A stretch of DNA of 17,464 bases from a virus (taxonomy: Duplodnaviria; Heunggongvirae; Uroviricota; Caudoviricetes), in IMG/VR virus record IMGVR_UViG_2778261165_000010; one strand, written 5' to 3'. Each line of letters begins with the position of its first letter. Position 1 is the first letter of the stretch. Under the pieces are notes generated by a model. That model did no database searches. It worked only from the letters and a program-made list of their open reading frames with translations, and was not told where the DNA came from. Positions 1-17,464 of this stretch are shown in pieces. The position numbers and the translations under genes are program-made.

Positions 1-19
1 GCTGGGAAGGCTGGGTCAT
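1..19 (-). CDS. 5' end of the next tail gene downstream of the tape measure (partial, runs off window)
   Basis: ATG at 19..17 on the minus strand preceded by GGAGGG; only 6 codons (MTQPSQ) are visible. The short Shine-Dalgarno spacing makes this uncertain. Confidence 0.3.
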
Positions 20-124
20 ATCCCTCCGGCAGAAGCAGAAAAAGCTTATTATGCTTCCATCAGAAACGATGATCTGGCAGCCTGAGTTCACAGATAAAAC
101 ACTCTCCAGGAAAACCGGGGCGGT

Positions 125-2898: not shown

Positions 2899-2946
2899 TC
2901 AATGCGTCCCCCTGTAGGGCAGTACCACAGGAGGATTAACGGAAAA

Positions 2947-3909: not shown

Positions 3910-3935
3910 AGGAGCCTCCTATGTCATTAATTGCG

Positions 3936-4328
3936 CTAGAGCGCGCGATATGGAATTTGAAGATTAAGCTGGAACCAGCCATTCTTTTCGCCAACGGCTA
4001 TTGAGGAAACAGCCTGGTAACTGAGACGATCGTCATCCTGAAACTCAAACAGTTCCCGCAATTTATCGGCTGTCTCAGTAATGAGTTTTGAACCAGAACC
4101 TGCGGGGACAAATAACTGAATAATGATTATCCCCGTGCGATAAACAATCGGCCCCGCGCCAATTTCATTAACTCCAGCCTGCCCGGGAATATTACTTAAC
4201 CGCGCCCAGATTAACTTACCGGAAGGATCGAACGTTGGCGCGTTCGGATACAATACGTCTTTTCCATCAATAATCGTCTGTGCCGTCATTCTGGAAATAA
4301 CCGTATTTCTGATTTCAGTAAACGTCAT
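3936..4328 (-). CDS. tail terminator protein (lambda gpU-like by position)
   Basis: 130-aa ORF immediately upstream of the tail tube gene; its start overlaps the preceding gene by 4 nt. Called by synteny. Confidence 0.5.
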   Translation of the reverse strand: MTFTEIRNTVISRMTAQTIIDGKDVLYPNAPTFDPSGKLIWARLSNIPGQAGVNEIGAGPIVYRTGIIIIQLFVPAGSGSKLITETADKLRELFEFQDDDRLSYQAVSSIAVGEKNGWFQLNLQIPYRAL

Positions 4329-4705
4329 TTGTAAGCCTGTAAAACACCATGAAAAGCGTTGGCATACACGCCAGTTGGCGCTTGTTGTGAATGACCGTTT
4401 TCAAGAGCCTCTGCATAAGGAAGGTTATTCTGGATATAAATAACTCCGTAATTTGCAGCTTTCGAAATAACCCCGATCCCACGCTGAACAGCAATCGTAC
4501 CGTTCGGATCCACGTTATCAGATATACCAAAATCGGGATGCTGTAACGACACCAGGTTGTTATTTCTGAAACGTCCGGTATCAACCGGAGCAGCAATATC
4601 AATAGCAGTAAGAATCTGAATAGCGATGTAGCGAATCTTCAGCCCTACATCTTCCTCAATCATCCCGGCAAATATTGACGGTTCTATATCCCATGCCTTT
4701 GCCAT
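4325..4705 (-). CDS. HK97 gp10-like tail completion protein
   Basis: 126 aa containing a PVDTGRFRNN motif characteristic of the HK97 gp10 family; abuts the upstream gene. Confidence 0.65.
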   Translation of the reverse strand: MAKAWDIEPSIFAGMIEEDVGLKIRYIAIQILTAIDIAAPVDTGRFRNNNLVSLQHPDFGISDNVDPNGTIAVQRGIGVISKAANYGVIYIQNNLPYAEALENGHSQQAPTGVYANAFHGVLQAYK

Positions 4706-5089
4706 TTACGCTCTCCTTAACTGGATAGAGTAAACTGATGCGGAAGGATCTACACTTGCTGTAATTACCTCGTATCGTTGTAACTGCCTTGATACAGGAT
4801 CATAAATCTCAATAATATGGTCGACAGCTGGTTTATCCGTAACCTCGCATACCAGAGCGGTTAATTTAAGGTCACCATGCAAAATATTAATCCCATCAAT
4901 TCTGCCCAGCTTATAACGTGTCAACACGCCTCGCCCGGTATAGATTGCGGTGGATTCGCCGCCAGTTTCCGTCACAGGATCCCAGTGCCGGTGCGTAACG
5001 TAAGAACCAGAAAAATCACTCACGGCGTCCGCTAAATCCTCATCAAAAGCAGCGGCAACCTCTGACTGAATCTCTTCACGAAGCCCCAT
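4706..5089 (-). CDS. head closure / head-tail joining protein (putative)
   Basis: 127-aa ORF whose ATG (5089..5087) overlaps the upstream stop as TAATG. Called by synteny between adaptor and tail completion genes. Confidence 0.45.
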   Translation of the reverse strand: MGLREEIQSEVAAAFDEDLADAVSDFSGSYVTHRHWDPVTETGGESTAIYTGRGVLTRYKLGRIDGINILHGDLKLTALVCEVTDKPAVDHIIEIYDPVSRQLQRYEVITASVDPSASVYSIQLRRA

Positions 5090-5483
5090 TATCCCCCCCT
5101 CACAACCCTGACTTGTGAGCGACTAAGTCCGTACGGTTTCAGCAGTGCTATCGCAAGCTGTAAATCGGGTTCAAGCAATGCAGTGCTGTTTGCTGGCAAC
5201 TCAGAAAATGATTTCGATACACTGACCCCGTCAGCCGACACGGCTTTACTGATAACAACGCCAGAATCATTTTTCTGCTGAAACAACTTACCGAATGAGG
5301 CAATTCTGGCTGCATATGCTCCCGCAAGTTTTACCTCTTCCGGAATACGGGATGGGTTAATTTTCAGGTTGAGCCATTAAGCCAGGCATTAGCCATTAAA
5401 ACAGCTTTATTTTTAGCGTTCTCACTCGTCCAGGCGTTCCCAAACGCATTATCAACGTCATCACAGGTCACGTAAGTGATCAT
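5089..5483 (-). pseudogene. head-tail adaptor/connector gene interrupted by a frameshift
   Basis: ATG at 5483 with AGGAG 6 nt upstream opens a frame (MITYVTCDDVDNAFGNAWTSENAKNKAVLMANAWLNGST) that stops at 5364. A second frame, open from 5376 to 5089, continues (WLNLKINPSRIPEEVKLAGAYAARIASFGK...VRVVRGG). The two overlap by about 12 nt and differ by -1. No slippery heptamer is present. Confidence 0.55.
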
Positions 5484-5486
5484 GTG

Positions 5487-5663
5487 TTACTCCTGAGTTT
5501 TCCAGCCCATAGCCTTCCAGTTGTCAACTTCATCAGGATGAACATTAGCGATAGTTGGTGCGCCGGGAAACATCTGATAATCGGTCACCATAACCACTAA
5601 CTCAATTTGCGTTTTTTGTGCGGCTTCACGCTGTGCTCTTTGCTCTTTAGTTAATCCGGCCAT
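5487..5663 (-). CDS. small hypothetical protein (58 aa) downstream of the capsid gene
   Basis: ATG at 5663..5661; translation MAGLTKEQRAQREAAQKTQIELVVMVTDYQMFPGAPTIANVHPDEVDNWKAMGWKTQE. Its stop lies 3 nt before the next ATG. Below the length cut-off of the ORF track. The Shine-Dalgarno is G-rich only. Confidence 0.45.
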   Translation of the reverse strand: MAGLTKEQRAQREAAQKTQIELVVMVTDYQMFPGAPTIANVHPDEVDNWKAMGWKTQE

Positions 5664-5671
5664 ATGCCCCC

Positions 5672-5696
5672 CATTAAAAATGGGGCCGAAGCCCCG
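5672..5696 (-). terminator. intrinsic terminator after the major capsid gene
   Basis: On the minus strand: GGGGC-TTCG-GCCCC hairpin (plus 5682..5695) followed by ATTTTTAA, 10 nt after the capsid stop codon. Confidence 0.65.
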
Positions 5697-5705
5697 TTTG
5701 AATGT

Positions 5706-6845
5706 TTAACCAAGAATCAGACAACCATGTGCCGGCTTCACTGATGAAACACCCCATGCCAGTCCAACTTCATAGCGCACCTGGCGATACTGACGATACA
5801 GTGCAATCTGGAACGTAATCCCTGAAATCGGGTCCGTAACATTCATTACATCATCAGCATTATCGCCACCTTCCGGCATTGCCGGAGTACGGGATGCCAG
5901 CAGAAACGCGTTGCGATCAAACGCCATATTTGCCGTAAAGGCCCCAACAACTGTGATGGCAGTATCATCGGCCAGATCCTGACGCAGTCCGGGCGCTGCA
6001 AGAGTAATCAGATTGCTGGTCGCTGCTGCCACAACATACTGATTCGGATCACCAGCGAACGTAACAATCTGACCTGCAGAAATACTCCCCGAACCAGTAT
6101 CAATGGAAATAAGAACATCGCCTTCTTTTTTCTCTCCATTCACGAGATAACCAGTTGCAGCAACCTTTGGCGCTCGTTTCACACCTGCCGAACTGTGAAT
6201 ATTGAATCCCTCCAGACACCCCAACACGCCCTCACGCAGTAGCTGTTCAGTGCCGGATTCATTCACTTTAAACAATACAGACTGTTTTCCGCGCAAATTA
6301 GCAATGGCAGTGGAGCCAAGCACCATCTGCAGATCGGTTGTCGGTGCGCCGTTATCCTCCAGAACCTGACGAGCCAGAGCAGCATCAGAAAGATCATCTT
6401 TAACACCAAACGGCGTTGTCCCTGCGGTTCCCACGGCGCGGGAAGCACCGAAATACAACGCACCAAGATCAGCCTCAACCTCGTTTGCAAGGGCGCGAAA
6501 AGCCTGCTTGAACTGATCAGCCAGAATGGTGTTGTAAGTCCCTGAAGGGCCAAGAGCCAGTTGTTCTTCACCATTCCATTTAACCGGTGCCATTTTGGAT
6601 TTAGTAATTTTTACATCAACAGTGCCAATATTTTGATCACCGGTATTCGGAGCTGACGGCCCCGGTACGATATCTTCGGTTTTCGCCTCAGGCGCAACTG
6701 GCGCGGTTACCGTCTGATCTTTTGCTGCGGCGTCAGCTTTTGCGTTTTTTGCTACCGCAGGGATAAAACCTACCTGCTCACGGGATACAACATCCAGGGC
6801 GGTATAAATAGTCGGGATCAACCCGGTCAGGGTATTTCCAGCCAT
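5706..6845 (-). CDS. major capsid protein
   Basis: ATG at 6845 with AAGGAA ribosome-binding site (MAGNTLTGLIPTIYTAL..). About 380 aa, directly after the scaffold gene and followed by a strong terminator. The track ORF extends to 6938 from a non-ATG start. Confidence 0.8.
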   Translation of the reverse strand: MAGNTLTGLIPTIYTALDVVSREQVGFIPAVAKNAKADAAAKDQTVTAPVAPEAKTEDIVPGPSAPNTGDQNIGTVDVKITKSKMAPVKWNGEEQLALGPSGTYNTILADQFKQAFRALANEVEADLGALYFGASRAVGTAGTTPFGVKDDLSDAALARQVLEDNGAPTTDLQMVLGSTAIANLRGKQSVLFKVNESGTEQLLREGVLGCLEGFNIHSSAGVKRAPKVAATGYLVNGEKKEGDVLISIDTGSGSISAGQIVTFAGDPNQYVVAAATSNLITLAAPGLRQDLADDTAITVVGAFTANMAFDRNAFLLASRTPAMPEGGDNADDVMNVTDPISGITFQIALYRQYRQVRYEVGLAWGVSSVKPAHGCLILG

Positions 6846-6943
6846 AATTAAATATTCCTTAAAAATTTGCGTAATTGTGAATAGATGGAGTAATGAGCTA
6901 TCCAGCCCTGACACCAGCTCCCATCCGGAAGCTGACAAATGTG

Positions 6944-7708
6944 TTAATCAACGATTGTGATACCGTCTTTCAATGCGTTTTGCTTACCTGCAACATCCAG
7001 TGCATCAAAAGCAGAGCGTTTCATCGTTTTCTGACCAATATCATGCTGTGTCGGACGGGAGCCGCCGCCATTGTTGCCACTGGCTTTCAGGATGTAGTCT
7101 TTCTGAGGGTAATTTTCGACAAGGAACTCCAGCGCCTCATCAAACTGCGCCAGTTCGCCAGGCTTCGCGCGGGAATAAATTTTGTTGCCGGAAGCGTCAT
7201 AAGCAACGATCCTCCCTTCTTCCACTTTGAATGCCTGCCCGAAGCGGGCTTGTAATAAATCTGCCGGGATCGCAATTTTATCGGCAATATATTTTGAACC
7301 CGCAAAACTACCGCCAATCATAGAATCGTAAAGCTGCTTCTCCAGCATCTGAGAGCGTTGCTTTTCTTCATCTAATTGCTGCTGAAAATTTTTCGTAATT
7401 TCTGCCTTAACCTGGTCAACCTGTCCCGCATCGAGCAGCTTTTTCTGGTCGATTTTTGACAGCATTTCCAGTGCCTCGATCGCCTTCTTCGGGTCTTCGA
7501 TAGCGGCAAACTTAGCCAGTTTTTCCTCTGCAGCTTCTTTAGCCAGGCGATGATTTTTTGCCTCGCCATTAAGCTCTGTAATTTTTTTTGTCGCCAGCGG
7601 TGCATCGAAGCCAATTTCTTTACCATCGTCGTGCACATAAACTGGCAGGCCAGCAGTATCAATTTCTGCGTATTGTTTTCCGTTAATCTCGACCGTTTTC
7701 AGTTTCAT
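6944..7708 (-). CDS. scaffolding protein (putative)
   Basis: ATG at 7708 (MKLKTVEINGKQ..). Charged, coiled-coil-rich 254-aa protein between the head morphogenesis and capsid genes. The track start at 7780 would run through the terminator hairpin. Confidence 0.55.
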   Translation of the reverse strand: MKLKTVEINGKQYAEIDTAGLPVYVHDDGKEIGFDAPLATKKITELNGEAKNHRLAKEAAEEKLAKFAAIEDPKKAIEALEMLSKIDQKKLLDAGQVDQVKAEITKNFQQQLDEEKQRSQMLEKQLYDSMIGGSFAGSKYIADKIAIPADLLQARFGQAFKVEEGRIVAYDASGNKIYSRAKPGELAQFDEALEFLVENYPQKDYILKASGNNGGGSRPTQHDIGQKTMKRSAFDALDVAGKQNALKDGITIVD

Positions 7709-7765
7709 ATTAGTACCTGGTTTAAGTCTTCCGACAGTTACGCTGCTCACCATCCGGATCGCAGC

Positions 7766-7792
7766 AATAAAAAAGGCCACCCGAAGGTAGCC
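7766..7792 (-). terminator. intrinsic terminator between the Mu F-like and scaffold genes
   Basis: On the minus strand: GGCTACC-TTCG-GGTGGCC (7-bp stem with one G-U pair, TTCG loop) followed by TTTTTTTATTG. Confidence 0.65.
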
Positions 7793-7812
7793 TGTTGTAA
7801 TAAATGATTTAT

Positions 7813-8928
7813 TTAAATCCCTGCTTTTCTGAATACCTGTGCATCACGCTCACGGAGCTGCTTCAGCGTCAGCCATTCGCCTTTATCGGTGTAAAATTCA
7901 TCTGGCGACATACCACCATCCCGAATCAGCTTTGCTCGGGTTTCCCCCACAATCTGTTTTTGTCTGGTGTAAGGCTGACGCAAAAACCATTCCCTGTAGG
8001 TTGTATCTCCGGCCACCACGCCATCCATGCTGGCCCGCTCAGCCGGGGAAATATCGCGAACATCAATACCCAGTTCCTTCGCTGATTTCAGAATGAACGT
8101 TTCCGTTGAGCGGCAGCAGAAATGAATTTTTCCCGGCCCCTGCAAATAAGGCACGCTGTGACCTACAGGTTTATTATTCAGCGTATATTTGAGGCGATCC
8201 CTGATTCGACATTGTGGCGTAGTACGATTATCAAGCGTTGATAACCATTGCTTACCCTTAATCAAATCATTATTCGCGCTGGCAAAACTCTCACGGGCAG
8301 TAGCAGCAAGATGTCCAACCGCTGTTTTTGCAATGCTGGCCGCATTAGCCCGGCTCATCTGCAATGCACCATCCTGAAATCCCTTACTGACATGTCCCCG
8401 AATTTTTCTTGCGATCTGCTCATTGGTATCCCCCAGCAAAAAACCCTGACGCACTGTATTTGTTATGCGTCTGAGCCGATCCGCCTCAAGATCTGAGGCC
8501 CACTCACTGAGCAGTCGTCCCTGGAATGGTCGCGCCATTGCAGCGGCATAAAGTGCATCAGGAGAGATACCAACCAGAGGGTGAACATCAGCAACAAAAT
8601 CAGGTAGCATAGAATCAAACAGACTTAACTGATAACCAGCCTCATAAATTGCCAGCTCGTTCAGCTCTCCGGAGAGACTGGTAAACATGCTGTTAATAGC
8701 AGTGCGGTTAACCTTTCTGACGCTCGCCAGAAGTGACTCCAGGCGCTTAACGGTAAAATTACCTGGATCGAGGCTGTCCAGTGCTATCAGCAGGCGAGCA
8801 GTAAGTTCCGCATCGCTGTCATTCAGTATTTTCACCATTCTGGCAGCCACGCCAGTGCTATAGCGGGATATCCAGACTGCATGAGCAATTGATTCATCAC
8901 GCAGCCGTTCATTCACGGTTTGCATCAT
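7813..8928 (-). CDS. head morphogenesis protein, Mu F / SPP1 gp7-like
   Basis: 371 aa immediately after the portal gene, with an LDNRTTPQCR motif matching the LD.RT..C signature of this family. Confidence 0.75.
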   Translation of the reverse strand: MMQTVNERLRDESIAHAVWISRYSTGVAARMVKILNDSDAELTARLLIALDSLDPGNFTVKRLESLLASVRKVNRTAINSMFTSLSGELNELAIYEAGYQLSLFDSMLPDFVADVHPLVGISPDALYAAAMARPFQGRLLSEWASDLEADRLRRITNTVRQGFLLGDTNEQIARKIRGHVSKGFQDGALQMSRANAASIAKTAVGHLAATARESFASANNDLIKGKQWLSTLDNRTTPQCRIRDRLKYTLNNKPVGHSVPYLQGPGKIHFCCRSTETFILKSAKELGIDVRDISPAERASMDGVVAGDTTYREWFLRQPYTRQKQIVGETRAKLIRDGGMSPDEFYTDKGEWLTLKQLRERDAQVFRKAGI

Positions 8929-10315
8929 TGATTTCCATCAGCATTACACTCTGATTTTTTAATTCATCGATCACTTCCTCTGGACGGGAATCCTGATCGA
9001 TAAATTTCAACGCCTGCAACACCCGAACCGCATCAATCTGACGTATATCACCGCCCTGACGCAATGACTGAACAGCCAGCGCGGAGGATGAGTCAAACAC
9101 CTGGGCAGATACATCCAGTTCAGTGCGCACATCCACATTGCCACCGCAACTCTCTCCGATCCATTCCGCCATTATCTGGAGAATATTATCGAGGGCATCT
9201 TCGAGGGAGTTCGCCATTGTATAAAGCGGCGAGTTTTCCTGCATTCGCTCTTCATTAGTCTGATCAACAGATTTGGTGGATGTATTTTCAGCACGCAGAA
9301 GTTTAGCGCCGGCATGACGCATCTGATTTTCCAGCTTCTCAAGTGATGTTTCGCCAGATTCTATCGCTGCGCCACTATGTTCAACATATTCGAGGCCATT
9401 TTTTGTTCTGTCCTCAAAAATCGTAGCGGTGGATGCACCAACCGTCAGTTCTTCATTCCTGTCCAGCCCGTAGGCCACCAGCAATGGAACGCGGGTAACA
9501 TGAAGAATATTGTCCTGCTCGCTCTGGCTTTGCCAGTGCTTGATATTCAGCAAGCCAAGATTAAGCAATGGCGGTGTACCACGCATAAATCCTGTTTTCT
9601 TCGTGTACAGTGTTACCAGAGGAATATCATCACGGCTGGTATTCCATGACTCATGAAGCGTCCAGACAGATTCGCCATTAGTGCCTTCGCTACGTCGATA
9701 AATTTCAACTCGACGGGGCATAATATGGCGGATCTGCTCCACCTTCTTCTGCCCGAAATCATCACCATCAATAATGATGACCTCTTTTATACGCAAATCA
9801 GTGAGAACAACTTTCCCTTTTTCAACTTTCGATTTCCATCCAATAACCTGGCGTGGATTCAGCATCGTAACGTACGGACGACCACCGGTCGCGTTTTCAT
9901 CGGCTTTTGTACGAATCTCTTTCATATCCGTTCGTGGATAGTCCACCAGCGCATGTGCCACACCATACTGAAATGCGAGGCTGAAAAATTGCTGCGCCCA
10001 CACATCCAGTCGGCTCCCCTCCATGTCGATATTTTCTGCATATTCCCTGATTTTTGCCGGCGTTTCCTCACTCAATACTGTCGGCTCTGCAAATATGCGC
10101 CCAATATTTTGCTTGATGCTTTCTTCATACACAGGAAGTAGCGTAGCCACAGACAGGCGTTTTTTATAAGCGTCTTCATCTTCGTTAGGCCATTTTGGGA
10201 GATAATTTTCCCCCTGCCTGCGCATTTCAAGCGTACCGCCCATCAGTGCGTCGTTAATATCCCACGCCTCCAGCATATCGTTATAGTCGAGGTTGGGTGT
10301 TGATATATCAGCCAT
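8909..10315 (-). CDS. portal protein
   Basis: 468-aa ORF directly downstream of the terminase large subunit and overlapping the head morphogenesis gene; size and position are canonical. Confidence 0.8.
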   Translation of the reverse strand: MADISTPNLDYNDMLEAWDINDALMGGTLEMRRQGENYLPKWPNEDEDAYKKRLSVATLLPVYEESIKQNIGRIFAEPTVLSEETPAKIREYAENIDMEGSRLDVWAQQFFSLAFQYGVAHALVDYPRTDMKEIRTKADENATGGRPYVTMLNPRQVIGWKSKVEKGKVVLTDLRIKEVIIIDGDDFGQKKVEQIRHIMPRRVEIYRRSEGTNGESVWTLHESWNTSRDDIPLVTLYTKKTGFMRGTPPLLNLGLLNIKHWQSQSEQDNILHVTRVPLLVAYGLDRNEELTVGASTATIFEDRTKNGLEYVEHSGAAIESGETSLEKLENQMRHAGAKLLRAENTSTKSVDQTNEERMQENSPLYTMANSLEDALDNILQIMAEWIGESCGGNVDVRTELDVSAQVFDSSSALAVQSLRQGGDIRQIDAVRVLQALKFIDQDSRPEEVIDELKNQSVMLMEINDANRE

Positions 10316-10317
10316 AA

Positions 10318-11628
10318 TTAAATCCGAAGTGATGTGACTCTTCCGGTCGGTTTGACAATAGGGAATTGCTTAACGATGAAATAACCTCCGGCATCATTCG
10401 GGTGATCATTGCCAGATTTTTTATCAGGCTCCCCCTTCTCATCCCAGACCTGTTGCTCCAGAGATTCGGCATATAACGGGCAACGCTTCACATTAACTTT
10501 ATAGCGACGCTCACCATTGGCATTGCAGAACATTGCATTCATTGAGTTAACGCGATCTTTTACTGGCGGGTTCGAGCTGTTCACCACAACGTTAAAACCA
10601 GCCTGCTTAAGCTGGGCTATATCCGTCGTACTTGCGTTACTTGATTTTCTGGAATCCCCGGAAGCATCTGGATAAATATAAATTTCCCTCACTTTCCGGT
10701 AATCATTCCCATCATACAGCCAGAAGCGTTCTTTAATGATGCGGATCATATCCGGCGTATCGTAGGCATTGATGATTTCAGTTACCGCACATGGAAGCCC
10801 CAAACGCAGCACATGGACGATTCCCGCCATCTTTCCAACGTTAAAATCCATCCCAATATAAATCGGCTCCCCTGGCTGCTCCACTTCTTCGCAATTATTC
10901 AGTTTCCGGTCAAACTGATGGTAAACAGTACCACTTGTCAGGTTAGTAAACTGTCCTCGAAGATAGGCTTTAATCAGCTCTGGAGGGTATGATTCAAGAA
11001 GCGAAGGAATGTAATCTGCTGGCAGGTTCTTTTCATTATCGAAAGTAGATGCCTGCACCAGACCATACAGTGAGGCCAGCTCTGTTTTTTCACGCACGGC
11101 TTTAACAAACTGCTCGTAGACAAATTTGAATCCTTCCGGCGTGGTTGTAACGTCAATACCGTTGCGAAGTCCATCAATCTTATAACGCATACGTGCAATT
11201 ATCTTGCGCCACGCCGTTCTGGCTTTTTCCTTCGGCAAAATGTCCAGTTCATCCACCAACGCATTACCAATTTTGAAACCGACGATCGTTTGTGGCTTCT
11301 CCATCGATCTGCAGATAGTGGTTCCCCGATACTGGCGTCCGTAATAAAAGTGAACCTCTTTATTTCCCTCATTAATTTTTACGTTCAATCCCCAGTCAGC
11401 AGCAACTTCTTCCACTGTAGGGTAAAAAATATCGCGAATTTGGGGATACGTTGGCGCAAAATATCCCTGATTTATACCTGGATGCTCCCAAATCCCCTTG
11501 CATATGCCGCCACACCCAACCCATGTTTTGCCCGAGCCAAAACCAGCAATATAGGCTTTAAATTTATGGGGCATTGAAAGAAATCGCGCCTGAGGCACAT
11601 TAAGCGTCGGAGAGATCATCTTCATCAC
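10318..11628 (-). CDS. terminase large subunit
   Basis: N-terminal Walker A-like GFGSGKT; acidic nuclease-type motifs in the C-terminal half; lies between the small terminase and portal genes. Start may be one of the Met codons at 11628, 11625 or 11619. Confidence 0.9.
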   Translation of the reverse strand: MMKMISPTLNVPQARFLSMPHKFKAYIAGFGSGKTWVGCGGICKGIWEHPGINQGYFAPTYPQIRDIFYPTVEEVAADWGLNVKINEGNKEVHFYYGRQYRGTTICRSMEKPQTIVGFKIGNALVDELDILPKEKARTAWRKIIARMRYKIDGLRNGIDVTTTPEGFKFVYEQFVKAVREKTELASLYGLVQASTFDNEKNLPADYIPSLLESYPPELIKAYLRGQFTNLTSGTVYHQFDRKLNNCEEVEQPGEPIYIGMDFNVGKMAGIVHVLRLGLPCAVTEIINAYDTPDMIRIIKERFWLYDGNDYRKVREIYIYPDASGDSRKSSNASTTDIAQLKQAGFNVVVNSSNPPVKDRVNSMNAMFCNANGERRYKVNVKRCPLYAESLEQQVWDEKGEPDKKSGNDHPNDAGGYFIVKQFPIVKPTGRVTSLRI

Positions 11629-12694
11629 TCCTTACTCTGGCATCAACCACATTAATATTGATCGCCACAGGCTGGGGATGTTCATTATCTTCCACCGTTT
11701 CGATCTCTTTGCGCAGCTTCTGGTTTTCCATTCTGCGCCGTTCAATTTCCAGTTCCTGTAGCCGTTTATCTGCACATAAAGCCCCGCCAGCAGAAAACAA
11801 ACGCAACAATTCACGCCGGGCGGCAGCCTTATCCTCCAGCAGGATCTCAACGCCGAATTTTCCGAATTTTGCCCCTGCATATAATTGCCGCGCATCCCCA
11901 TCAAGCAGAGTGGTATCAGCCATATAAAGCTGTCCCGTTCCCTCACCGCAGCACTTCGGGCAGTCCGGATTGGGTATGGCGTTATCAACAAAGCCGAGGC
12001 CTCCATATTCCGGTTCGGGTTTGCCATCTCTGGAAGCCTGCGCCGCTGCCTTGTCGAATTCTGCTATATCGCGCCACTGGTAGAGATGATTCTCGCCCCA
12101 GCAATAACGGCAGTTAACACGGCGAAATTGTGCAAGCTGATTGGGGTCGGCCAGGACAATAGCCATCAACTGACTCACTAGTAAATCCAGGTCTGCGGTA
12201 TAGCGTTTCTGGTACTGATTGCGGAAGTAGCTGATAGCGCGAAAAACCCTGGCATTTCTAAGCATACGACTGGCGTTGCTGTTAGCTGTCGCACCTTGCC
12301 CCTCATAACCGGCTAGTCGGTACGCCTCTGTCGGCTTTTTACCCTGAGCAACAAGCATCGCAAACTTAGCCTGCTGGTCAGAAATGCCGAATTCATCGGG
12401 ACAGAACGAAAATTCCTCCGCGTCGCCCTCATTCAGGCCCGCATCGAATACTGGCTTTTTTTCCTGAGATTTTTCGTTCCGCTTTTGTGCAGTCTGCGCA
12501 GATTTTTTCTGCGCACTTTTTTGCGCAGTTTTGCACATTTCTGTCTGCGCATTTTTCGGAGTTTTTTTGATGTAACGACGGGCTGTTGCGTAATTCAGTC
12601 CCCTTGCTTCACACCATGCCACCGGAGATATACCGGAGCGGGTGTATTCAGCAATATACTCCTGCTGCAACGCCCCCCAGTCCGGTCTGCTCAT
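11600..12694 (-). CDS. terminase small subunit (HTH, Terminase_2-like core, C-terminal 4-Cys ribbon)
   Basis: ATG at 12694 with AGGA ribosome-binding site. N-terminal HTH (ISPVAWCEARGLNYATARRYIKK); low-complexity KTAQKSAQKKSAQTAQKR linker; core FAMLVAQGKKPTEAYRLAGYEGQGATANSNASRMLRNARV typical of small terminases; CRYC...CPKCC cysteine cluster. Confidence 0.8.
   Translation of the reverse strand: MSRPDWGALQQEYIAEYTRSGISPVAWCEARGLNYATARRYIKKTPKNAQTEMCKTAQKSAQKKSAQTAQKRNEKSQEKKPVFDAGLNEGDAEEFSFCPDEFGISDQQAKFAMLVAQGKKPTEAYRLAGYEGQGATANSNASRMLRNARVFRAISYFRNQYQKRYTADLDLLVSQLMAIVLADPNQLAQFRRVNCRYCWGENHLYQWRDIAEFDKAAAQASRDGKPEPEYGGLGFVDNAIPNPDCPKCCGEGTGQLYMADTTLLDGDARQLYAGAKFGKFGVEILLEDKAAARRELLRLFSAGGALCADKRLQELEIERRRMENQKLRKEIETVEDNEHPQPVAININVVDARVRSDEDDLSDA
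12495..12551 (-). repeat. array of five TGCGCA/TGCACA motifs separated by T-tracts inside the 5' part of the small terminase gene
   Basis: Plus-strand motifs at 12495, 12510, 12522, 12532 and 12546, each followed by T4-6 runs; spacing 10-15 bp. Confidence 0.6.
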
Positions 12695-12697
12695 CAG

Positions 12698-12949
12698 TTA
12701 GTCCTGATTTTTATCCACCCTGAGTAGTTCGCGCAGAGCAAAGGCATCCCCTTTTCTGGCAAGCTTAAACAATGCCGCTCGTAACTCGGCTTCACCTTTC
12801 GCTCTGCCCTTACGGATGGCCGCATAAAAATCTGTCATTGCTTCCCGATTTTCTTTCAGTCGGTTCAGATCAACATCCAGAACGTCAGCGATTTGTTGTG
12901 CAGTCATCCGGCACGCTGCCAGAGACTCGACTTTCGAATACGGAATCAT
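12698..12949 (-). CDS. small hypothetical protein (83 aa), possible HTH DNA-binding protein
   Basis: ATG at 12949 with GGGGGTGA upstream; stop 3 nt before the small terminase ATG. Contains MTAQQIADVLDVDLNRL, which looks HTH-like. Overlaps the 3' end of the upstream gene by 65 nt. Confidence 0.5.
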   Translation of the reverse strand: MIPYSKVESLAACRMTAQQIADVLDVDLNRLKENREAMTDFYAAIRKGRAKGEAELRAALFKLARKGDAFALRELLRVDKNQD

Positions 12950-13817
12950 TTGTCACCCCCATTGATATGCAGGGTGTCTTCTTCCTGTATTTTTCGTGAA
13001 GGATTTTTACTGCAGCGTTGTTCCAGGTGACCTGATGGTGAATGCGTTTATGGCTGGCACCCATCAGTGAGATTTTTACGCACGACGGCGCATACATGAC
13101 GGAGTAAAAACTTTTAACGTAGGTTCCGGAATCCAGATACAGCTCGGTCATTCCGCCGCTGTTTTTCTGCGTCTGTTTCTGCCCTAACTGGACAGCACCG
13201 ATCGTCATAAACAATTCACCACAGCGACCGAGATTCGTGTACGTATTCACATCCTCGTTAATGCGCCCCATGAATGAGAACGGTCGATCAACCGAACAGA
13301 TAAAGCTGTTCATTGCCTTGCGTTTCACCCACGAAGCATGGCCGCCATTGTCACCAAGAAAATCCCCGCCCTGCGACATAGCGATGGAAAGAGCAGGTAT
13401 TGATTCGTAGTACGCCAGCATTTCAGAAAGGATCGCATCCAGTTTCCTTATCGGAAAATAGGCCTGGTCATAGTTGCGATCCACCCGAAACTGGAACTCG
13501 TGATAATCATCATCGAGCTGAATGAAGTATTTACACCCGACCAGTTTTGCCAGGTCGAAACAGGCATTACGGGCGTAAAAAATTGAGCGGCGGTCACAGA
13601 AATTATCGGCTTCGTCAAAACGACTGGCGATATCGGCTTTGGAAAACACCAGCACCTGTTCACCAAATTCAGCCATGTACTGATTTCGTGTCTTATCTTC
13701 ATCATCAACAACGATAAAAATTTTCCCGGTATAGCCAGCACGACGCAACGTCCGGTAAGTCAGAACTTTGTCCGGTCGCCCGTGAGTCAGAATAAAGGCG
13801 CAAAAATCATCACGCAT
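12885..13817 (-). CDS. hypothetical protein with GT-A-like glycosyltransferase features
   Basis: ATG at 13817 directly after a GGAGGAGGAGG ribosome-binding site, overlapping the upstream stop by 8 nt. N-terminus CAFILTHGRPDKVLTYRTLRRAGYTGKIFIVVDDED resembles the GT-A beta1-alpha1-beta2 'VVDDxx' pattern. A DxD-like IQLDDDYHE lies about 90 residues further on. No transmembrane segments. Confidence 0.45.
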   Translation of the reverse strand: MRDDFCAFILTHGRPDKVLTYRTLRRAGYTGKIFIVVDDEDKTRNQYMAEFGEQVLVFSKADIASRFDEADNFCDRRSIFYARNACFDLAKLVGCKYFIQLDDDYHEFQFRVDRNYDQAYFPIRKLDAILSEMLAYYESIPALSIAMSQGGDFLGDNGGHASWVKRKAMNSFICSVDRPFSFMGRINEDVNTYTNLGRCGELFMTIGAVQLGQKQTQKNSGGMTELYLDSGTYVKSFYSVMYAPSCVKISLMGASHKRIHHQVTWNNAAVKILHEKYRKKTPCISMGVTNDSVFESRVSGSVPDDCTTNR

Positions 13818-14601
13818 ATTCCTCCTCCTCACCACCATGCATGATCTCCACCATGCGCTGCGTCATCCGGACAAATCCATTTTCAATAGCCTGCTGATAA
13901 TCAATGATCACCAGCGCCGACTCCTCGAAAAAACACTGAATTTCAGAGGGGGCGTGAGCGTAATAGTCCGCAATTCTGCTGAAATTAAACACCGTGTGAC
14001 GTTCTGCCGCACACAGGAGGAATTTCTCAATATCAGGCTCAAGGGACGCCGAACGTATCCGGCTGATCAGCTCCTGAGTTTTCGTATCGTCGTACAGTTC
14101 ACTGATATCCGGTTTACCGCCCGACGGCTCATAAACAGGCGTATCAATTTTCGTCGTATACGGCTCCTCCTCATTTCCTGTACCGGGCAAAACATCCGTC
14201 AACAGTTCATCAATTTCTGTCGGGATGAAGCCTGTCAGGGAGACATCAAAATCAGCATTGATTAGGTCCGACAGCTCCATCCGCAACAGATCTTCATCCC
14301 AGCCAGCATTCATCGGCAGGCGATTATCTGCCAGGCGGTACGCCTTTTTCTGCTCATCCGTCAGGCCAGACAGAACAATGACCGGAACAGAATCCATTTT
14401 GAGCATTTCAGCCGCCATAACACGACCGTGACCCGCAATAATTTCGCCCTTTTCGTCAATCAGCACCGGATTAGTCCAGCCGAATTGCTTAATACTTTCT
14501 ACCAGTTGTGCCACCTGCTCAGGGCTGTGCGTCCTGGCGTTGTGCGCATACGGTGACAATTCTTGTAATGGGCGATAGACTATCTTTAATTTCTCGCTCA
14601 T
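13810..14601 (-). CDS. ParB N-terminal domain (ParB/Srx-like) protein
   Basis: ATG at 14601 with AAGG upstream. N-terminal KLKIVYRPLQELSPYAHNARTHSPEQVAQLVESIKQFGWTNPVLIDEKGEIIAGHGRVMAA matches the ParB/sulfiredoxin fold, with GHGR in place of the GERR arginine patch. C-terminal 170 aa unassigned; acidic tail GGEEEEYA. Confidence 0.7.
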   Translation of the reverse strand: MSEKLKIVYRPLQELSPYAHNARTHSPEQVAQLVESIKQFGWTNPVLIDEKGEIIAGHGRVMAAEMLKMDSVPVIVLSGLTDEQKKAYRLADNRLPMNAGWDEDLLRMELSDLINADFDVSLTGFIPTEIDELLTDVLPGTGNEEEPYTTKIDTPVYEPSGGKPDISELYDDTKTQELISRIRSASLEPDIEKFLLCAAERHTVFNFSRIADYYAHAPSEIQCFFEESALVIIDYQQAIENGFVRMTQRMVEIMHGGEEEEYA

Positions 14602-14617: not shown

Positions 14618-14652
14618 AATAAAACGCACCCCAGCAGCCAGTGCTACTGGGG
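14618..14652 (-). terminator. intrinsic terminator downstream of trkG
   Basis: On the minus strand: CCCCAGTAG-CACTGG-CTGCTGGGG hairpin (plus 14629..14652) followed by TGCGTTTTATTC, about 85 nt after the trkG stop and 17 nt before the ParB-like start. Confidence 0.6.
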
Positions 14653-14738
14653 ACGGAGGGGTTGCTGGTAAAGTTAGGTATTGGATCAATGAGTGAGTCA
14701 ACATAATATTAAACTCACAATTATAAATCAGCCATATA

Positions 14739-16214
14739 TTAGGAGCGCCAAAAAAAACCTGAAAACAATATAATAACAGGATAAATTTCAAGGCGACCAA
14801 GAATCATAGCTATGCACATTAAACATTTTGCAATGTCATTAAGCACTCCGAATGACGATGCAGTAGCCCCAAAACCTAATCCCATATTATTAATACATGC
14901 AGCCACTGTTGCAAATGATGTAAGAAAATCATATCCCATACCATTTAACACCAGTATAAAAAACACCGTGAAGAGAGTATAAAGAAAAAAGAAACTCCAT
15001 ACAGACCTCATTACACGATCTGTAACTATCTTCCCTCCTACATTTACACTCAACAACGCTCTGGGATGAGAAAGCTGATTTATCTCGTGTTTGCTTTGTT
15101 TGAAAAGTATAAGAAATCGAAGTGACTTAATTCCACCACAAGTTGAACCTATACATCCCCCAAAGAAACTTGACAACAGCAAAAACACTATCGTGTGCGT
15201 GGGCCAACTTGCATAATCCTGCGTAGCTAAACCATTATCAGTGAGCATGGAGCTGGCAAGAAAAAACGAATGAATAAAACTTCCATGCAAGTCATACATA
15301 CCTATATGCCAGACCTGGAAAGAGGTAACAATGATCACCCCTAAGGCTATTAACAGAAAGAAACGAAGTTCAATATCTCTGATTAAAGGTTTTATCGTTT
15401 TCCTGCTAATAACAATATACCAAAGAGTGAAGTTGAAAGCCGATAGCAGGGAAAAAGAACCAGCCACCAGCTCAACCAAATAGTTATTAAAATATCCGAT
15501 ACTCTCGCTATGAGTTGAGAAACCACCAAGCGAAACTGTGGAAATCCCGTGACAAATAGCATCAAACAAAGGCATTCCTGCAAGTCTATAACAGACAATA
15601 CAAGCAATACCTAATAAAGAATAAGTTATCCACAGTGTCCGTGACGTATCGGCCAGGCGGGGAGTGAGTTTGTCATCCTTAAATGGCCCCGGCATTTCTG
15701 ACTGATAAAGCTTTGCACCACCAATACCCAATAATGGCAATACAGCAACCGCCAGAACAATAACTCCTAAACCACCTATAAAATTTAACTGTGACCGATA
15801 GTACAAATATGCCCGAGGTAATGAACTAACATCATCAATTACAGTTGCTCCTGTTGTTGTTATTCCAGAAACCCCTTCAAACAGAGCATCAATGAACGTT
15901 AAATTAAGTTCTGAGTCAATCCATAAAGGGAATGCACTAATAACAGAAAACAAAATCCAAAACATTACAATTATAATAAACCCATCACGGGTACGTAATT
16001 GAATGCCAGATTTCTTAGTTGTATACCACGCTCCGCCACCAATGCAAAAAAATATAACGAAAGTTATAAAGAAAACGAACAGGCTTTTTTCTTTATAAAA
16101 CAATGCTACAACCATTGGTGGCAACATTGAAAGACTATAGAGCCAAACCAGGAACCCACACATATGAGTAACAACTCTTACATGAGATGTATTCATATCT
16201 AAATATTCTTTCAA
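14739..16214 (-). CDS. trkG: TrkH/TrkG-family potassium uptake membrane protein
   Basis: Polytopic membrane protein with repeated Gly-rich selectivity-filter-like segments (GVSGITTTGATV, IGGLGVIVLAV, STVSLGGFST, GSTCGGIK). From memory it matches E. coli TrkG, which is prophage-borne in K-12. Markedly AT-rich compared with its neighbours. The true start may be Met7 at 16196 (MNTSHVRVV..). Confidence 0.88.
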   Translation of the reverse strand: MKEYLDMNTSHVRVVTHMCGFLVWLYSLSMLPPMVVALFYKEKSLFVFFITFVIFFCIGGGAWYTTKKSGIQLRTRDGFIIIVMFWILFSVISAFPLWIDSELNLTFIDALFEGVSGITTTGATVIDDVSSLPRAYLYYRSQLNFIGGLGVIVLAVAVLPLLGIGGAKLYQSEMPGPFKDDKLTPRLADTSRTLWITYSLLGIACIVCYRLAGMPLFDAICHGISTVSLGGFSTHSESIGYFNNYLVELVAGSFSLLSAFNFTLWYIVISRKTIKPLIRDIELRFFLLIALGVIIVTSFQVWHIGMYDLHGSFIHSFFLASSMLTDNGLATQDYASWPTHTIVFLLLSSFFGGCIGSTCGGIKSLRFLILFKQSKHEINQLSHPRALLSVNVGGKIVTDRVMRSVWSFFFLYTLFTVFFILVLNGMGYDFLTSFATVAACINNMGLGFGATASSFGVLNDIAKCLMCIAMILGRLEIYPVIILFSGFFWRS

Positions 16215-16333
16215 TTATAACCACCTTGCTGCAATATTATGATTATACTGTATAAAATTTAACTCCTCTTAGATCTTACTTCACTGTTCCTTATGAAACA
16301 ATCATCAAAATGAATCATATTGTAGTTAAGATT

Positions 16334-16798
16334 TTACTTTAAACACTGCTCGGTTATGTATTGCTGAGCACCTTCAAGTTGGGCCTGCATCATTACCAGT
16401 CGTTCCCGGAGGGTGAAATAATCCCGTTCAGCGGTGTCTGCCAGTCGGGGGGAGGCTGCATTATCCACGCCGGAGGCGGTGGTGGCTTCACGCACTGACT
16501 GACAGACTGCTTTGATGTGCAACCGACGACGACCAACGGCAACATCATCACGCAGAACATCATTTTCAGCTTTCGCATCAGCTAACTCCTTCGTGTATTT
16601 TGCATCGAGCGCAGCAACATCACGCTGACGCATCTGCATGTCAGTAATTGCCGCGTTCGCCAGCTTCAGTTCTCTGGCATTTTTGTCGCGCTGTTCTTTG
16701 TAGGCGATGGCGTTATCACGGTAATGATTAACACCCCATGACAGGCAGACGACGATGCAGATAACCAGAGCGGAGATAATCGCGGTTACTCTGTTCAT
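16334..16798 (-). CDS. Rz i-spanin
   Basis: ATG at 16798 overlaps the endolysin stop as ATGA. N-terminal transmembrane segment ([18 protein letters not shown]) followed by a coiled-coil periplasmic domain. The track ORF starts 4 codons upstream. Confidence 0.85.
16393..16578 (-). CDS. Rz1 o-spanin lipoprotein, embedded in Rz in the +1 frame
   Basis: [20 protein letters not shown]: signal peptide with lipobox and Cys, then a proline-rich mature region ([18 protein letters not shown]). Entirely inside the Rz gene in a different frame. Confidence 0.85.
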
Positions 16799-17292
16799 TG
16801 CTGACCCCACAAACAGATTTCACGCTCAATCTCACGACGAGTCATGAGACCTTTCCATTGCTTACCGCCAGCATATGTCCAGCGACGTAGCTGATCACAT
16901 GCGCCTTTGATATCGCCCTGGTTTATTTTGCGAAGAAGCGTCGATGTTCTGAAATTGCCAGCACCCACGTTGTAAACGAATGAGTAAAGAGCGCCGCGCG
17001 TTGTTTCCGGTATATCGACTTTGATGTACGGGTTAATTTGTCTGGCGACCGTGGCAAGGTCTTTATTCAGGAGGGCTTTGCATTCTGCTTTGGTATACGT
17101 TTTACCGAGCATGATGTCTTTTCCTGTATGCCCGTGACATACAGTCCATACACCAACAATATCTTTGTATGGTATGTAGCTGACACCTTCCAGACCATCG
17201 TTACCACTTGGGCCAGTGATTAACACTGATGCTATAGCAATTGCTCCGCCACCAATAGCAGCAGCAACGACTTTTCGTAATGATGGAGGCAT
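16795..17292 (-). CDS. SAR endolysin (phage 21 R-type lysozyme)
   Basis: 165 aa with an N-terminal Gly/Ala-rich signal-anchor-release segment ([20 protein letters not shown]). From memory it is near-identical to E. coli cryptic-prophage lysozyme RrrD. ATG at 17292 with GAGAGGTGA ribosome-binding site. Confidence 0.9.
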
Positions 17293-17337: not shown

Positions 17338-17464
17338 TGGATTTGCCCCTATATTTCCAGACATCTGTTATCACTTAACCCATTACAAGCCCGCTGCCGC
17401 AGATATTCCCGTGGCGAGCGATAACCCAGCGCACTATGCGGATGCCATTCGTTATAATGCTCGA
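17338..17464 (-). mobile_element. IS2 insertion sequence, terminal 127 bp (remainder outside window)
   Basis: Plus strand from 17338 reads TGGATTTGCCCCTATATTTCCAGACATCTGTTATCACTTAACCC, which I recognise from memory as the IS2 right terminal inverted repeat. It is followed by the 3' end of the transposase reading frame. Confidence 0.75.
17349..17464 (-). CDS. insD: IS2 transposase OrfB, C-terminal fragment (partial)
   Basis: The minus-strand frame translates to ..[37 protein letters not shown], the conserved C-terminal tail of IS3-family DDE (rve) transposases. The stop is at 17351..17349. Confidence 0.7.

What the first reader, a model, noticed from the sequence alone, without database searches (positions are those of the whole stretch)
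14618..16333. AT-rich trkG moron with its own terminator inside the late operon
A potassium-transporter gene is embedded between Rz/Rz1 and the packaging genes. Its base composition is strikingly more AT-rich than the flanking phage genes. It has an AT-rich upstream region (16215..16333) and a hairpin plus T-tract terminator downstream. This marks it as an independently acquired, probably lysogen-expressed cargo gene. Prophage carriage of trkG is established for E. coli K-12, but here it sits in an otherwise near-complete late region.
Basis: partly seen in the sequence, partly recalled or inferred. Interest (0 to 1): 0.4.

Follow-up and report, generated by a model that had tools for sequence, protein, structure and literature searches.

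The report
Rac prophage trkG cargo gene
This is the well-known potassium-transporter gene trkG carried as an AT-rich, self-expressed cargo gene by the E. coli Rac prophage, here in a fuller but still defective copy of that prophage, so it is ordinary.

Summary
Window 14618-16333 has 37.3% G+C against 47.9% for the rest (z = -8.9). It holds one minus-strand gene whose protein is identical to E. coli K-12 TrkG. A 25.5% G+C spacer precedes the gene and a stable hairpin plus U-tract follows it.

It is the Rac prophage trkG locus. The DNA is 99.7% identical to K-12 Rac, and the spacer is identical. The cassette is in 1541 of 5426 complete E. coli genomes. About 940 of those genomes have the full-length downstream neighbour ynaK, so the "complete late region" context is common.

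Published K-12 work already shows a sigma-70 promoter at trkG, activity of the upstream fragment in a reporter, partial H-NS repression, and expression without any late promoter. The moron reading is therefore supported and already in the literature.

I add four refinements:
- The terminator hairpin belongs to the phage backbone. Relatives without trkG share homology up to window 14671 and have a terminator at the same place.
- The trkG-specific DNA is about 14672-16333.
- Relatives of TrkG in other Enterobacterales are chromosomal, not phage-borne.
- This copy of the late region is broken by an IS2 in the holin gene, an IS3-family element in the tape-measure gene, and a frameshift.

A conserved TTG with a good ribosome-binding site suggests a 491-residue protein.

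The parts
16795..17292 (-). R endolysin (lysozyme), part of the late lysis cassette upstream of trkG
   Evidence: Pfam Phage_lysozyme E = 1.3e-45. Annotated rrrD in the identical DNA of CP148483 and CP033250.
16334..16810 (-). Rz i-spanin gene, with Rz1 embedded at 16578..16393. G+C is 52%. It is 99% identical to DLP12-type Rz only down to 16409.
   Evidence: Pfam Phage_lysis E = 3.1e-52. Homology break points at 16409 and 16356. Composition.
16215..16333 (-). AT-rich leader and promoter region of trkG (about 25% G+C), found only linked to trkG. It holds TATAAT at 16247..16242 and a 9/12 sigma-70 match at 16343..16314. The transcription start site is not mapped.
   Evidence: Composition. Identical to K-12. 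At least 98.5% identical in 136 loci. Not shared with the E. fergusonii trkG locus. The K-12 reporter fragment covers it. Promoter scan. TATAAT read from the sequence.
16212..16227 (-). Shine-Dalgarno AAGGTGG (16227..16221), 6 nt, then an in-frame TTG (16214..16212). This is a candidate true start that would give a 491-residue TrkG.
   Evidence: Sequence. The TTG is in frame in all 142 loci. The TTG/GTG is conserved in E. fergusonii, Citrobacter, Pectobacterium and Enterobacter, and in Citrobacter the position of the K-12 ATG is CTG. 491-residue homologues align over these six residues. phrog_1916 is 491 positions long.
14739..16196 (-). trkG coding sequence as annotated in K-12 (485 codons plus stop), for the Na+-dependent K+ transporter subunit TrkG.
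   Evidence: Pfam TrkH E = 5e-145. TIGR00933 scores 415 bits against a cut-off of 331. The protein is identical to K-12 TrkG. PDB TrkH 3pjz/4j9u E = 1.2e-120. The ORF is intact in 137 of 142 loci, with 49 synonymous and 28 nonsynonymous variant codons.
14672..14738 (-). AT-rich 3' tail of the trkG-specific segment. It has a weak AT-rich hairpin (14718..14693) and no U-tract.
   Evidence: G+C is 27-28% in the 60-nt windows 14670-14759. Fold is -8.1 kcal/mol, z = -0.8. Relatives without trkG lose homology exactly here.
14618..14655 (-). Intrinsic-terminator-like hairpin: 13-bp G+C-rich stem, ACUG loop, then UUUUAUU. It belongs to the phage backbone just upstream of the ynaK ribosome-binding site.
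   Evidence: -22.5 kcal/mol, z = -3.3. It lies inside the DNA shared with trkG-less relatives (homology up to 14671). Those relatives have their own hairpin plus UUUUUUAUU at the same place (-25.1 kcal/mol, z = -3.6).
13810..14601 (-). ynaK, a ParB/Srx-like nuclease-domain protein. It is full length here (263 aa) and truncated in K-12 by a deletion of window 2789..14347.
   Evidence: Pfam ParB_N. phrog_620 E = 8.5e-91. K-12 comparison.
17339..17464 (.). End of an IS2 element inserted in the holin gene S. It separates R-Rz-trkG from Q and the late promoter in this genome.
   Evidence: 100% match to IS2 copies. In the otherwise identical CP148483, IS2 lies between rrrD and a class II holin gene.
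1..124 (.). End of an IS3-family element that truncates the tape-measure gene (ORF 125..1963).

Best explanation
This is the trkG locus of a Rac-family lambdoid prophage of E. coli. A foreign, AT-rich segment of about 1.66 kb (about 14672-16333) lies between the end of the lysis cassette (Rz/Rz1) and the first gene of the packaging-side module (ynaK). It carries a TrkH-family potassium-transporter gene and its own AT-rich leader.

Shown by published work on near-identical K-12 DNA: the leader holds a sigma-70 promoter. This promoter drives trkG in the lysogen independently of phage late transcription, and H-NS partly represses it. TrkG works with the host proteins TrkA and SapD as a Na+-dependent K+ uptake system.

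Inferred: transcripts from the trkG promoter stop at the hairpin plus U-tract at 14655..14618. This keeps the packaging genes silent in the lysogen. The hairpin is a pre-existing backbone terminator in front of ynaK, not DNA that arrived with trkG.

Inferred: in intact relatives, Q-modified late transcription would read through trkG and this terminator, because trkG points the same way as the late operon.

Inferred: the gene was captured from a chromosomal trkG-type gene of another member of the Enterobacterales. It is kept by purifying selection as a lysogenic-conversion gene.
For: Identity:
- The protein is identical to K-12 TrkG.
- The DNA is 99.67% identical to K-12 Rac over 2431 nt, with no difference in 16197-16333.
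- The K-12 annotation is rzpR-rzoR-trkG-ynaK.
- The same DNA in CP033250 and CP148483 lies in the prophage next to uspF-ompN.

Foreign origin:
- G+C is 37.3% against 47.9%, z = -8.9, with GC3 at 32%.
- The Enterobacter orthologue encodes a 70%-identical protein at 57% G+C, so protein composition does not force the AT-richness.
- TrkG-clade relatives sit in non-phage chromosomal contexts.

Right boundary: 20 viral contigs have ynaK, the glycosyltransferase gene and terS at 91-97% identity but no trkG. They align to the window only up to 14671.

Autonomous expression:
- Genomic SELEX found a constitutive promoter at trkG (PMC5811629).
- The lux reporter used the fragment equal to window 16707..16197.
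- Transcript level in K-12 is similar to trkH and rises in an hns mutant (PMC9898762).
- K-12 lacks Q, S, R and the 5' part of Rz upstream of trkG.

Terminator.

Selection:
- 137 of 142 copies are intact.
- There are 49 synonymous and 28 nonsynonymous variant codons.
- Divergence is about 0.2% across the cassette, against 2-5% in the 5' part of Rz.

Prevalence: 1541 of 5426 complete genomes carry the cassette.
Against: - No transcription start site or 3' end was available to me, so the exact promoter and the use of the hairpin as terminator are inferred.
- Consensus promoter matches are not enriched in the region.
- The reporter fragment also contains 374 nt of Rz, so the promoter could lie in Rz and not in the spacer.
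- No strict empty site (Rz joined directly to ynaK) exists in 5426 E. coli genomes or in the other collections searched. The left boundary is therefore defined only by composition and by loss of homology to other Rz alleles (16356-16409).
- IS elements interrupt trkG in several genomes, so the gene is dispensable.
Confidence: 0.9

Rival explanations
1. trkG has no autonomous expression. It is simply one more gene of the Q-dependent late operon, transcribed only on induction, and serves the lytic cycle.
For: trkG points the same way as S-R-Rz and the packaging genes, and follows Rz by 137 nt. No convincing consensus promoter stands out.
Against: K-12 Rac has lost Q, the late promoter region, S, R and the 5' part of Rz. 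It still expresses trkG at about the level of trkH. Its upstream fragment drives luciferase, and RNA polymerase holoenzyme selects this site in vitro. In this window an IS2 separates the late promoter from R-Rz-trkG.
Confidence: 0.04
2. The low G+C is a by-product of encoding a hydrophobic membrane protein, not a sign of foreign origin.
For: TrkG is rich in Phe, Ile and Leu. GC1 is low (42%).
Against: GC3 is 32%, against 38-55% in the neighbours, while GC2 is ordinary. The non-coding flanks are even more AT-rich, at 25.5%. A 70%-identical Enterobacter orthologue is 57% G+C with GC3 at 72%.
Confidence: 0.02
3. trkG was not inserted on its own. It arrived as part of a larger exchanged module (lambda-type lysis cassette plus trkG) that replaced a different lysis cassette by recombination at the junction near 14671.
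For: The trkG-less relatives differ in everything upstream of 14671. They have a Phage_holin_8 holin, an M15 endolysin, another spanin and a 115-aa ORF in place of S-R-Rz-trkG. No Rz-ynaK empty site exists.
Against: The AT-rich block stops sharply at the Rz stop codon. Rz upstream of 16409 is 99% identical to Rz in many phages that have no trkG. Rz alleles vary by 2-5% among trkG-bearing loci while the cassette is nearly invariant. The lysis genes and trkG therefore have separate histories. The module swap explains the present-day alternatives, not the origin of the AT-rich DNA.
Confidence: 0.2
4. trkG here is a decaying remnant without function.
For: The prophage copy is defective. IS elements disrupt trkG in some genomes.
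Against: The ORF is intact and identical to the experimentally active K-12 protein. It is intact in 137 of 142 loci, with an excess of synonymous variants. It is one of the best-conserved Rac genes (PMC5700373).
Confidence: 0.02

Closest known systems
trkG of the cryptic Rac prophage of E. coli K-12 (b1363)
   Same: The protein is identical. The DNA is 99.67% identical from the middle of Rz to the middle of ynaK, and the upstream spacer is identical. The immediate neighbours are the same: Rz/Rz1 remnant upstream and ynaK downstream.
   Different: K-12 has deletions on both sides. Q, S, R and the 5' part of Rz are lost upstream. Window 2789..14347 (3' part of ynaK through the tail tube gene) is lost downstream. 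The window keeps these genes but has its own lesions: IS2, an IS3-family element and a frameshift.
Lambdoid-phage morons in the interval between Rz and the terminase genes (for example bor of phage lambda; moron concept of Juhala, Hendrix and colleagues, from my own knowledge)
   Same: It is an extra gene of deviating composition between the lysis and packaging modules. It is expressed from the prophage and followed by a terminator. Another E. coli prophage carries DUF1398 and YnfO-family genes in the same interval.
   Different: trkG is co-oriented with the late operon, whereas bor is on the opposite strand. It encodes a large 12-helix transporter instead of a small surface protein. Its terminator is shared backbone DNA.
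TrkH of E. coli and Vibrio parahaemolyticus (PDB 3pjz, 4j9u)
   Same: It belongs to the same Pfam family over its full length, and matches the solved TrkH with E = 1.2e-120.
   Different: It falls far below the NCBIfam TrkH equivalog cut-off (450 bits against 866), so it is a paralogue. The literature reports Na+-dependent K+ uptake for TrkG but not TrkH, and H-NS repression of trkG only (PMC9898762).
Chromosomal TrkG-clade genes of other Enterobacterales (E. fergusonii, Citrobacter, Pectobacterium, Enterobacter, Serratia)
   Same: They share 66-79% amino-acid identity over the full length and have a conserved TTG/GTG start region.
   Different: None of them lies in a phage late region. Their G+C is higher, at 42-57%. 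DNA homology to the nearest of them ends 23 nt before the ATG and 4 nt after the stop codon, so the flanks are unrelated.

Membership tests
TrkH/TrkG potassium-transporter subunit (Pfam PF02386, TIGR00933) | Full-length match to the family profile above the curated cut-off | tested here: met
   PF02386 scores 484 bits (cut-off 27), covering positions 3-500 of 502. TIGR00933 scores 415 bits (cut-off 331).
TrkH/TrkG potassium-transporter subunit (Pfam PF02386, TIGR00933) | Identity with the experimentally characterised TrkG | tested here: met
   There are no amino-acid differences from K-12 TrkG.
TrkH/TrkG potassium-transporter subunit (Pfam PF02386, TIGR00933) | K+ uptake activity dependent on TrkA | not testable with these tools
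   Known for the identical K-12 protein from the literature (PMC9898762).
TrkH orthologue (NCBIfam NF008020 equivalog) | Score above the equivalog cut-off | tested here: not met
   It scores 449.7 bits against a cut-off of 866. It is the TrkG paralogue, not TrkH.
Phage moron | Base composition different from the flanking phage genes | tested here: met
   G+C is 37.3% against 47.9%, z = -8.9, with GC3 at 32%.
Phage moron | Gene absent between the same two neighbours in related phages | tested here: inconclusive
   Relatives without trkG share the downstream backbone up to 14671 but have a different lysis cassette upstream. No Rz-ynaK joint exists in 5426 E. coli genomes.
Phage moron | Own promoter, with expression from the repressed prophage | not testable with these tools
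   The sequence scan is not significant. The literature on the identical K-12 sequence shows a constitutive sigma-70 promoter, reporter activity and lysogen expression.
Phage moron | Terminator directly downstream | tested here: met
   The hairpin is -22.5 kcal/mol, z = -3.3, and is followed by UUUUAUU, 84-121 nt after the stop codon. By homology it is backbone DNA, not part of the insert.
Rac prophage | Sequence identity with K-12 Rac segments | tested here: met
   99.67% over 2431 nt and 99.94% over 1760 nt.
Rac prophage | Integration at the ttcA locus, next to uspF-ompN | tested here: met
   This cannot be seen in the window itself. DNA identical or 99.9% identical in CP148483 and CP033250 lies in the prophage adjoining uspF-ompN and carrying recE, kilR and sieB. 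ON470595 shows ttcA-int at the other end.
Intrinsic (Rho-independent) terminator | G+C-rich stem, short loop, U-tract directly after the stem | tested here: met
   The stem has 13 pairs with one bulge, the loop is 4 nt, and UUUUAUU starts directly after the stem.
Intrinsic (Rho-independent) terminator | Termination in vivo or in vitro | not testable with these tools
   No 3'-end data were available.

The most novel reading that the evidence does not exclude
In intact Rac-like phages trkG may be more than a lysogenic-conversion gene. It sits co-directionally right after the lysis cassette, so Q-modified late transcription would express it in the last minutes of infection. A Na+-coupled K+ uptake system made at that time could alter membrane energetics, and with them holin triggering, lysis timing or burst size. 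A smaller point is that the real protein may start at the conserved TTG at 16214 and be 491 residues long, six more than annotated in K-12.
Probability: 0.1. Interest if true: 0.4.

Novelty: already known. Interest (0 to 1): 0.1.

Why it matters
It matters little as a discovery. Foreign origin, prophage carriage, own promoter and H-NS repression of trkG are all published for E. coli K-12, and the same cassette is in more than a quarter of complete E. coli genomes.

The window is useful mainly as the ancestral-type layout from which the K-12 Rac remnant derives by deletion. It also gives three small corrections for annotation:
- The terminator after trkG is phage backbone, not part of the insert.
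- The trkG-specific DNA is about 14672-16333.
- The start codon may be the conserved TTG.

Tried and rejected
- I looked for an empty site by joining the two flanks without trkG and searching 5426 complete E. coli genomes. No genome covers both halves in one place.
- A scan of one genome per species with YnaK found only trkG-bearing Escherichia and Shigella relatives, plus distant alphaproteobacterial ParB-like genes.
- The phage collection holds only 10 records with this late module. All carry trkG, and at least one is a prophage region cut from a chromosome with host flanks, not an isolated phage.
- Rfam found nothing in the window.
- The consensus promoter scan gave no enrichment and only one weak site upstream of trkG. 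I did not try to name the promoter.
- The original 1991 trkG sequence paper (PMC207911) is not held.
- Searches for trkG together with 'moron' gave nothing relevant.
- The small AT-rich hairpin just after the trkG stop codon is not a credible terminator (z = -0.8, no U-tract).
- I rejected the idea that amino-acid composition explains the AT-richness.
Full report
**What is in the sequence**

All genes in this part of the window are on the minus strand. In the direction of transcription the order is:
- R lysozyme, 17292..16795;
- Rz, 16810..16334, with Rz1 embedded at 16578..16393;
- a 137-nt spacer;
- trkG, 16196..14739;
- a second 137-nt spacer;
- ynaK, a ParB/Srx-like protein, 14601..13810;
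- a TAGT-like glycosyltransferase gene;
- a small ORF;
- the small and large terminase subunits, portal, head and tail genes.

The trkG product matches Pfam TrkH over its whole length (E = 5e-145). It passes the TIGR00933 cut-off but not the TrkH equivalog cut-off. It matches the solved TrkH structures with E = 1.2e-120. It has no amino-acid difference from E. coli K-12 TrkG.

**Check of the observation**

The compositional anomaly is large.
- Window 14618-16333 is 37.3% G+C, and the rest of the window is 47.9%.
- The 259 same-length windows to the left have mean 47.7%, sd 1.2 and minimum 45.5%, which gives z = -8.9.
- The shift is in silent positions. GC3 is 32% against 38-55% elsewhere, while GC2 is ordinary.
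- The shift is stronger still in non-coding DNA. The upstream spacer is 25.5% G+C.
- Synonymous codon usage lies about twice as far from the pooled phage genes as that of genes of similar length.
- The block begins abruptly at the Rz stop codon and ends near 14670.

The downstream hairpin is also real. It has a 13-pair G+C-rich stem at 14655..14625, a 4-nt loop, and then UUUUAUU at 14624..14618. Its energy is -22.5 kcal/mol, z = -3.3, and 1 of 200 shuffles folds as well.

Sequence alone does not show a promoter. Consensus matches are fewer than in shuffles (5 against 8.6). The only listed site upstream of trkG is a 9/12 match that overlaps the Rz stop codon. Two perfect TATAAT hexamers (16247..16242 and 16219..16214) can be read in the spacer, but both have poor -35 partners.

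**What it is**

This is the trkG locus of the Rac prophage.
- The window is 99.67% identical to K-12 MG1655 from the middle of Rz to the middle of ynaK: 8 differences in 2431 nt, none in the upstream spacer, and two synonymous ones in trkG.
- K-12 annotates rzpR (pseudogene), rzoR, trkG and ynaK in the same order inside 'cryptic prophage Rac'.
- K-12 differs by deletions. Its homology starts only at window 16778, so Q, the late promoter region, S, R and the 5' part of Rz are gone. Window 2789..14347 is also missing, which fuses a truncated ynaK to ydaY.

The fuller layout seen here is common.
- The cassette with both flanks is in 1541 of 5426 complete E. coli genomes.
- 942 of 5426 genomes hold at least 80% of the probe that spans full-length ynaK and the 3' end of trkG. 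A few of these are trkG-less relatives that match only the ynaK part.
- It is also present in E. ruysiae and Shigella flexneri.
- At least 138 IMG/VR viral contigs carry it.
- A deposited prophage record shows the whole element: ttcA-int ... recET ... racR ... Q, two tRNAs, S, R, Rz, trkG, ParB-like gene, terminase ... tail. Everything from Q onward is on one strand.

**Boundaries and origin of the insert**

Twenty viral contigs carry ynaK, the glycosyltransferase gene and terS at 91-97% identity but have no trkG.
- Their homology to the window runs up to position 14671 and stops there.
- Upstream they have a different lysis cassette, made of a Phage_holin_8 holin, an M15 peptidase and another spanin, followed by a 115-aa ORF of unknown function.
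- The right edge of the trkG-specific DNA is therefore about 14672, which coincides with the G+C step.

On the left, Rz is 99% identical to DLP12-type Rz in many phages only down to 16409. It matches another allele down to 16356. The AT-rich spacer occurs only linked to trkG. No genome has Rz joined directly to ynaK.

The nearest relatives of the protein outside E. coli are 79% identical (E. fergusonii), 77% (Citrobacter), 75% (Pectobacterium), 70% (Enterobacter) and 66% (Serratia).
- All of these sit in non-phage contexts. In Enterobacter the context is a core-looking neighbourhood next to parC and plsC. In Serratia it is a P4-like island.
- Their genes are 42-57% G+C.
- DNA similarity to the nearest of them ends 23 nt upstream of the ATG and 4 nt after the stop codon, so neither spacer is shared with it.

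In the collections searched, a phage late-region context for this gene clade appears only in the Escherichia/Shigella Rac lineage.

**The terminator is backbone, not cargo**

The hairpin and U-tract lie inside the DNA that trkG-less relatives share with the window (14671 downward). Those relatives have their own stable hairpin, with a different stem sequence, at the same place. It is -25.1 kcal/mol, z = -3.6, followed by UUUUUUAUU. It abuts the same conserved TTATTCATAAAGC(A/G)AGG that carries the ynaK ribosome-binding site.

The element is thus a conserved feature in front of ynaK. It now also serves as the first terminator downstream of trkG. The only structure inside the trkG-specific tail is weak and has no U-tract.

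**How it most likely works**

Steps shown by published work on the near-identical K-12 DNA:
- RNA polymerase sigma-70 holoenzyme selects a site at trkG in genomic SELEX. This is one of very few constitutive promoters inside K-12 prophages, and the authors conclude that the gene was inserted with its promoter (PMC5811629).
- A fragment equal to window 16707..16197 drives luciferase (PMC9898762).
- trkG mRNA in K-12 is about as abundant as trkH mRNA. It rises in hns and hns stpA mutants and does not respond to osmotic stress.
- TrkG mediates Na+-dependent K+ uptake and some Na+ uptake.

Steps that I infer:
- The promoter lies in or near the 25% G+C spacer. The reporter fragment also includes 374 nt of Rz, so this is not proven.
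- Transcripts end at the backbone hairpin, which shields the packaging genes.
- On induction of an intact relative, Q-modified polymerase reads through trkG and the hairpin.

The population data fit a maintained gene.
- 137 of 142 copies are intact.
- There are 49 synonymous and 28 nonsynonymous variant codons.
- Divergence is about 0.2% across the cassette, against 2-5% in the 5' part of Rz.
- An earlier survey also found trkG among the best-conserved Rac genes (PMC5700373).

**State of this particular copy**

The window is identical to E. coli Z1323CEC0004 (CP148483), except that that genome has an IS50R inside trkG.
- Window 17339-17464 is the end of an IS2 inserted in the holin gene.
- Window 1-124 is the end of an IS3-family element that truncates the tape-measure gene.
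- A 1-nt deletion at 5372 frameshifts a head-tail gene.

The late region is therefore complete in gene content but not functional. Late transcription from upstream would have to cross an IS2 to reach trkG.

**Start codon**

An in-frame TTG at 16214..16212 lies 6 nt after AAGGTGG (16227..16221). The annotated ATG at 16196 has no comparable ribosome-binding site.
- The TTG is present in all 142 loci.
- It is conserved in E. fergusonii, Citrobacter and Pectobacterium, with TTG or GTG in Enterobacter. In Citrobacter the codon at the position of the K-12 ATG is CTG.
- Many homologues are 491 residues long and align over the extra six residues.
- Serratia and Buttiauxella proteins start near the K-12 ATG position, so the point is open.

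**Verdict**

My additions are the right-hand boundary, the backbone origin of the terminator, the chromosomal relatives, the defects of this copy and the possible TTG start.

Noticed in passing
window 17339-17464: This is the end of an IS2 element inserted 46 nt upstream of the R start codon, inside the holin gene S. In the otherwise identical genome CP148483 the rest of the holin gene lies on the far side of the IS2.
   Followed up: yes
window 1-124 and ORF 125..1963: This is the end of an IS3-family element that truncates the tail tape-measure gene to 612 codons.
   Followed up: yes
window 5372 (ORFs 5089..5327): A 1-nt deletion relative to strain ECCHD184 frameshifts a head-tail gene of about 131 codons. 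The gene is annotated as frameshifted in CP148483.
   Followed up: partly
window 16212-16227: A conserved in-frame TTG with a strong Shine-Dalgarno sequence lies 18 nt upstream of the annotated trkG ATG. It is conserved in relatives, one of which has CTG at the position of the K-12 ATG. TrkG may be 491 residues long, not 485.
   Followed up: partly
window 12885-14601: ynaK (ParB/Srx-like N-terminal domain, 263 aa, full length here) overlaps a gene for a TET-associated or beta-glucosyl-HMC-type glycosyltransferase-like protein (Pfam PF20691, phrog_842). The pair sits just upstream of the terminase genes. It could be a DNA-modification or packaging-associated pair. No TET/JBP gene was seen in the window.
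   Followed up: no
window about 15338-15348; hits H1-H6; L193: trkG or its immediate flanks are interrupted by IS1, IS3, IS5 or IS50R in several complete E. coli genomes. These include the genome that is otherwise identical to this window.
   Followed up: partly
L172 2337-3233 and 4767-5114: In the trkG-less relatives an AraC-family regulator gene sits between the Q-like gene and the holin gene. A 115-aa ORF of unknown function (phrog_1935) occupies the slot before the ynaK terminator. The same intervals therefore carry other cargo in sister phages.
   Followed up: partly
window 2789-14347: This 11.6-kb stretch is exactly what K-12 Rac lacks. The K-12 joint fuses ynaK codon 86 to the ydaY region, so the K-12 genes ynaK and ydaY are deletion products of this layout.
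   Followed up: yes
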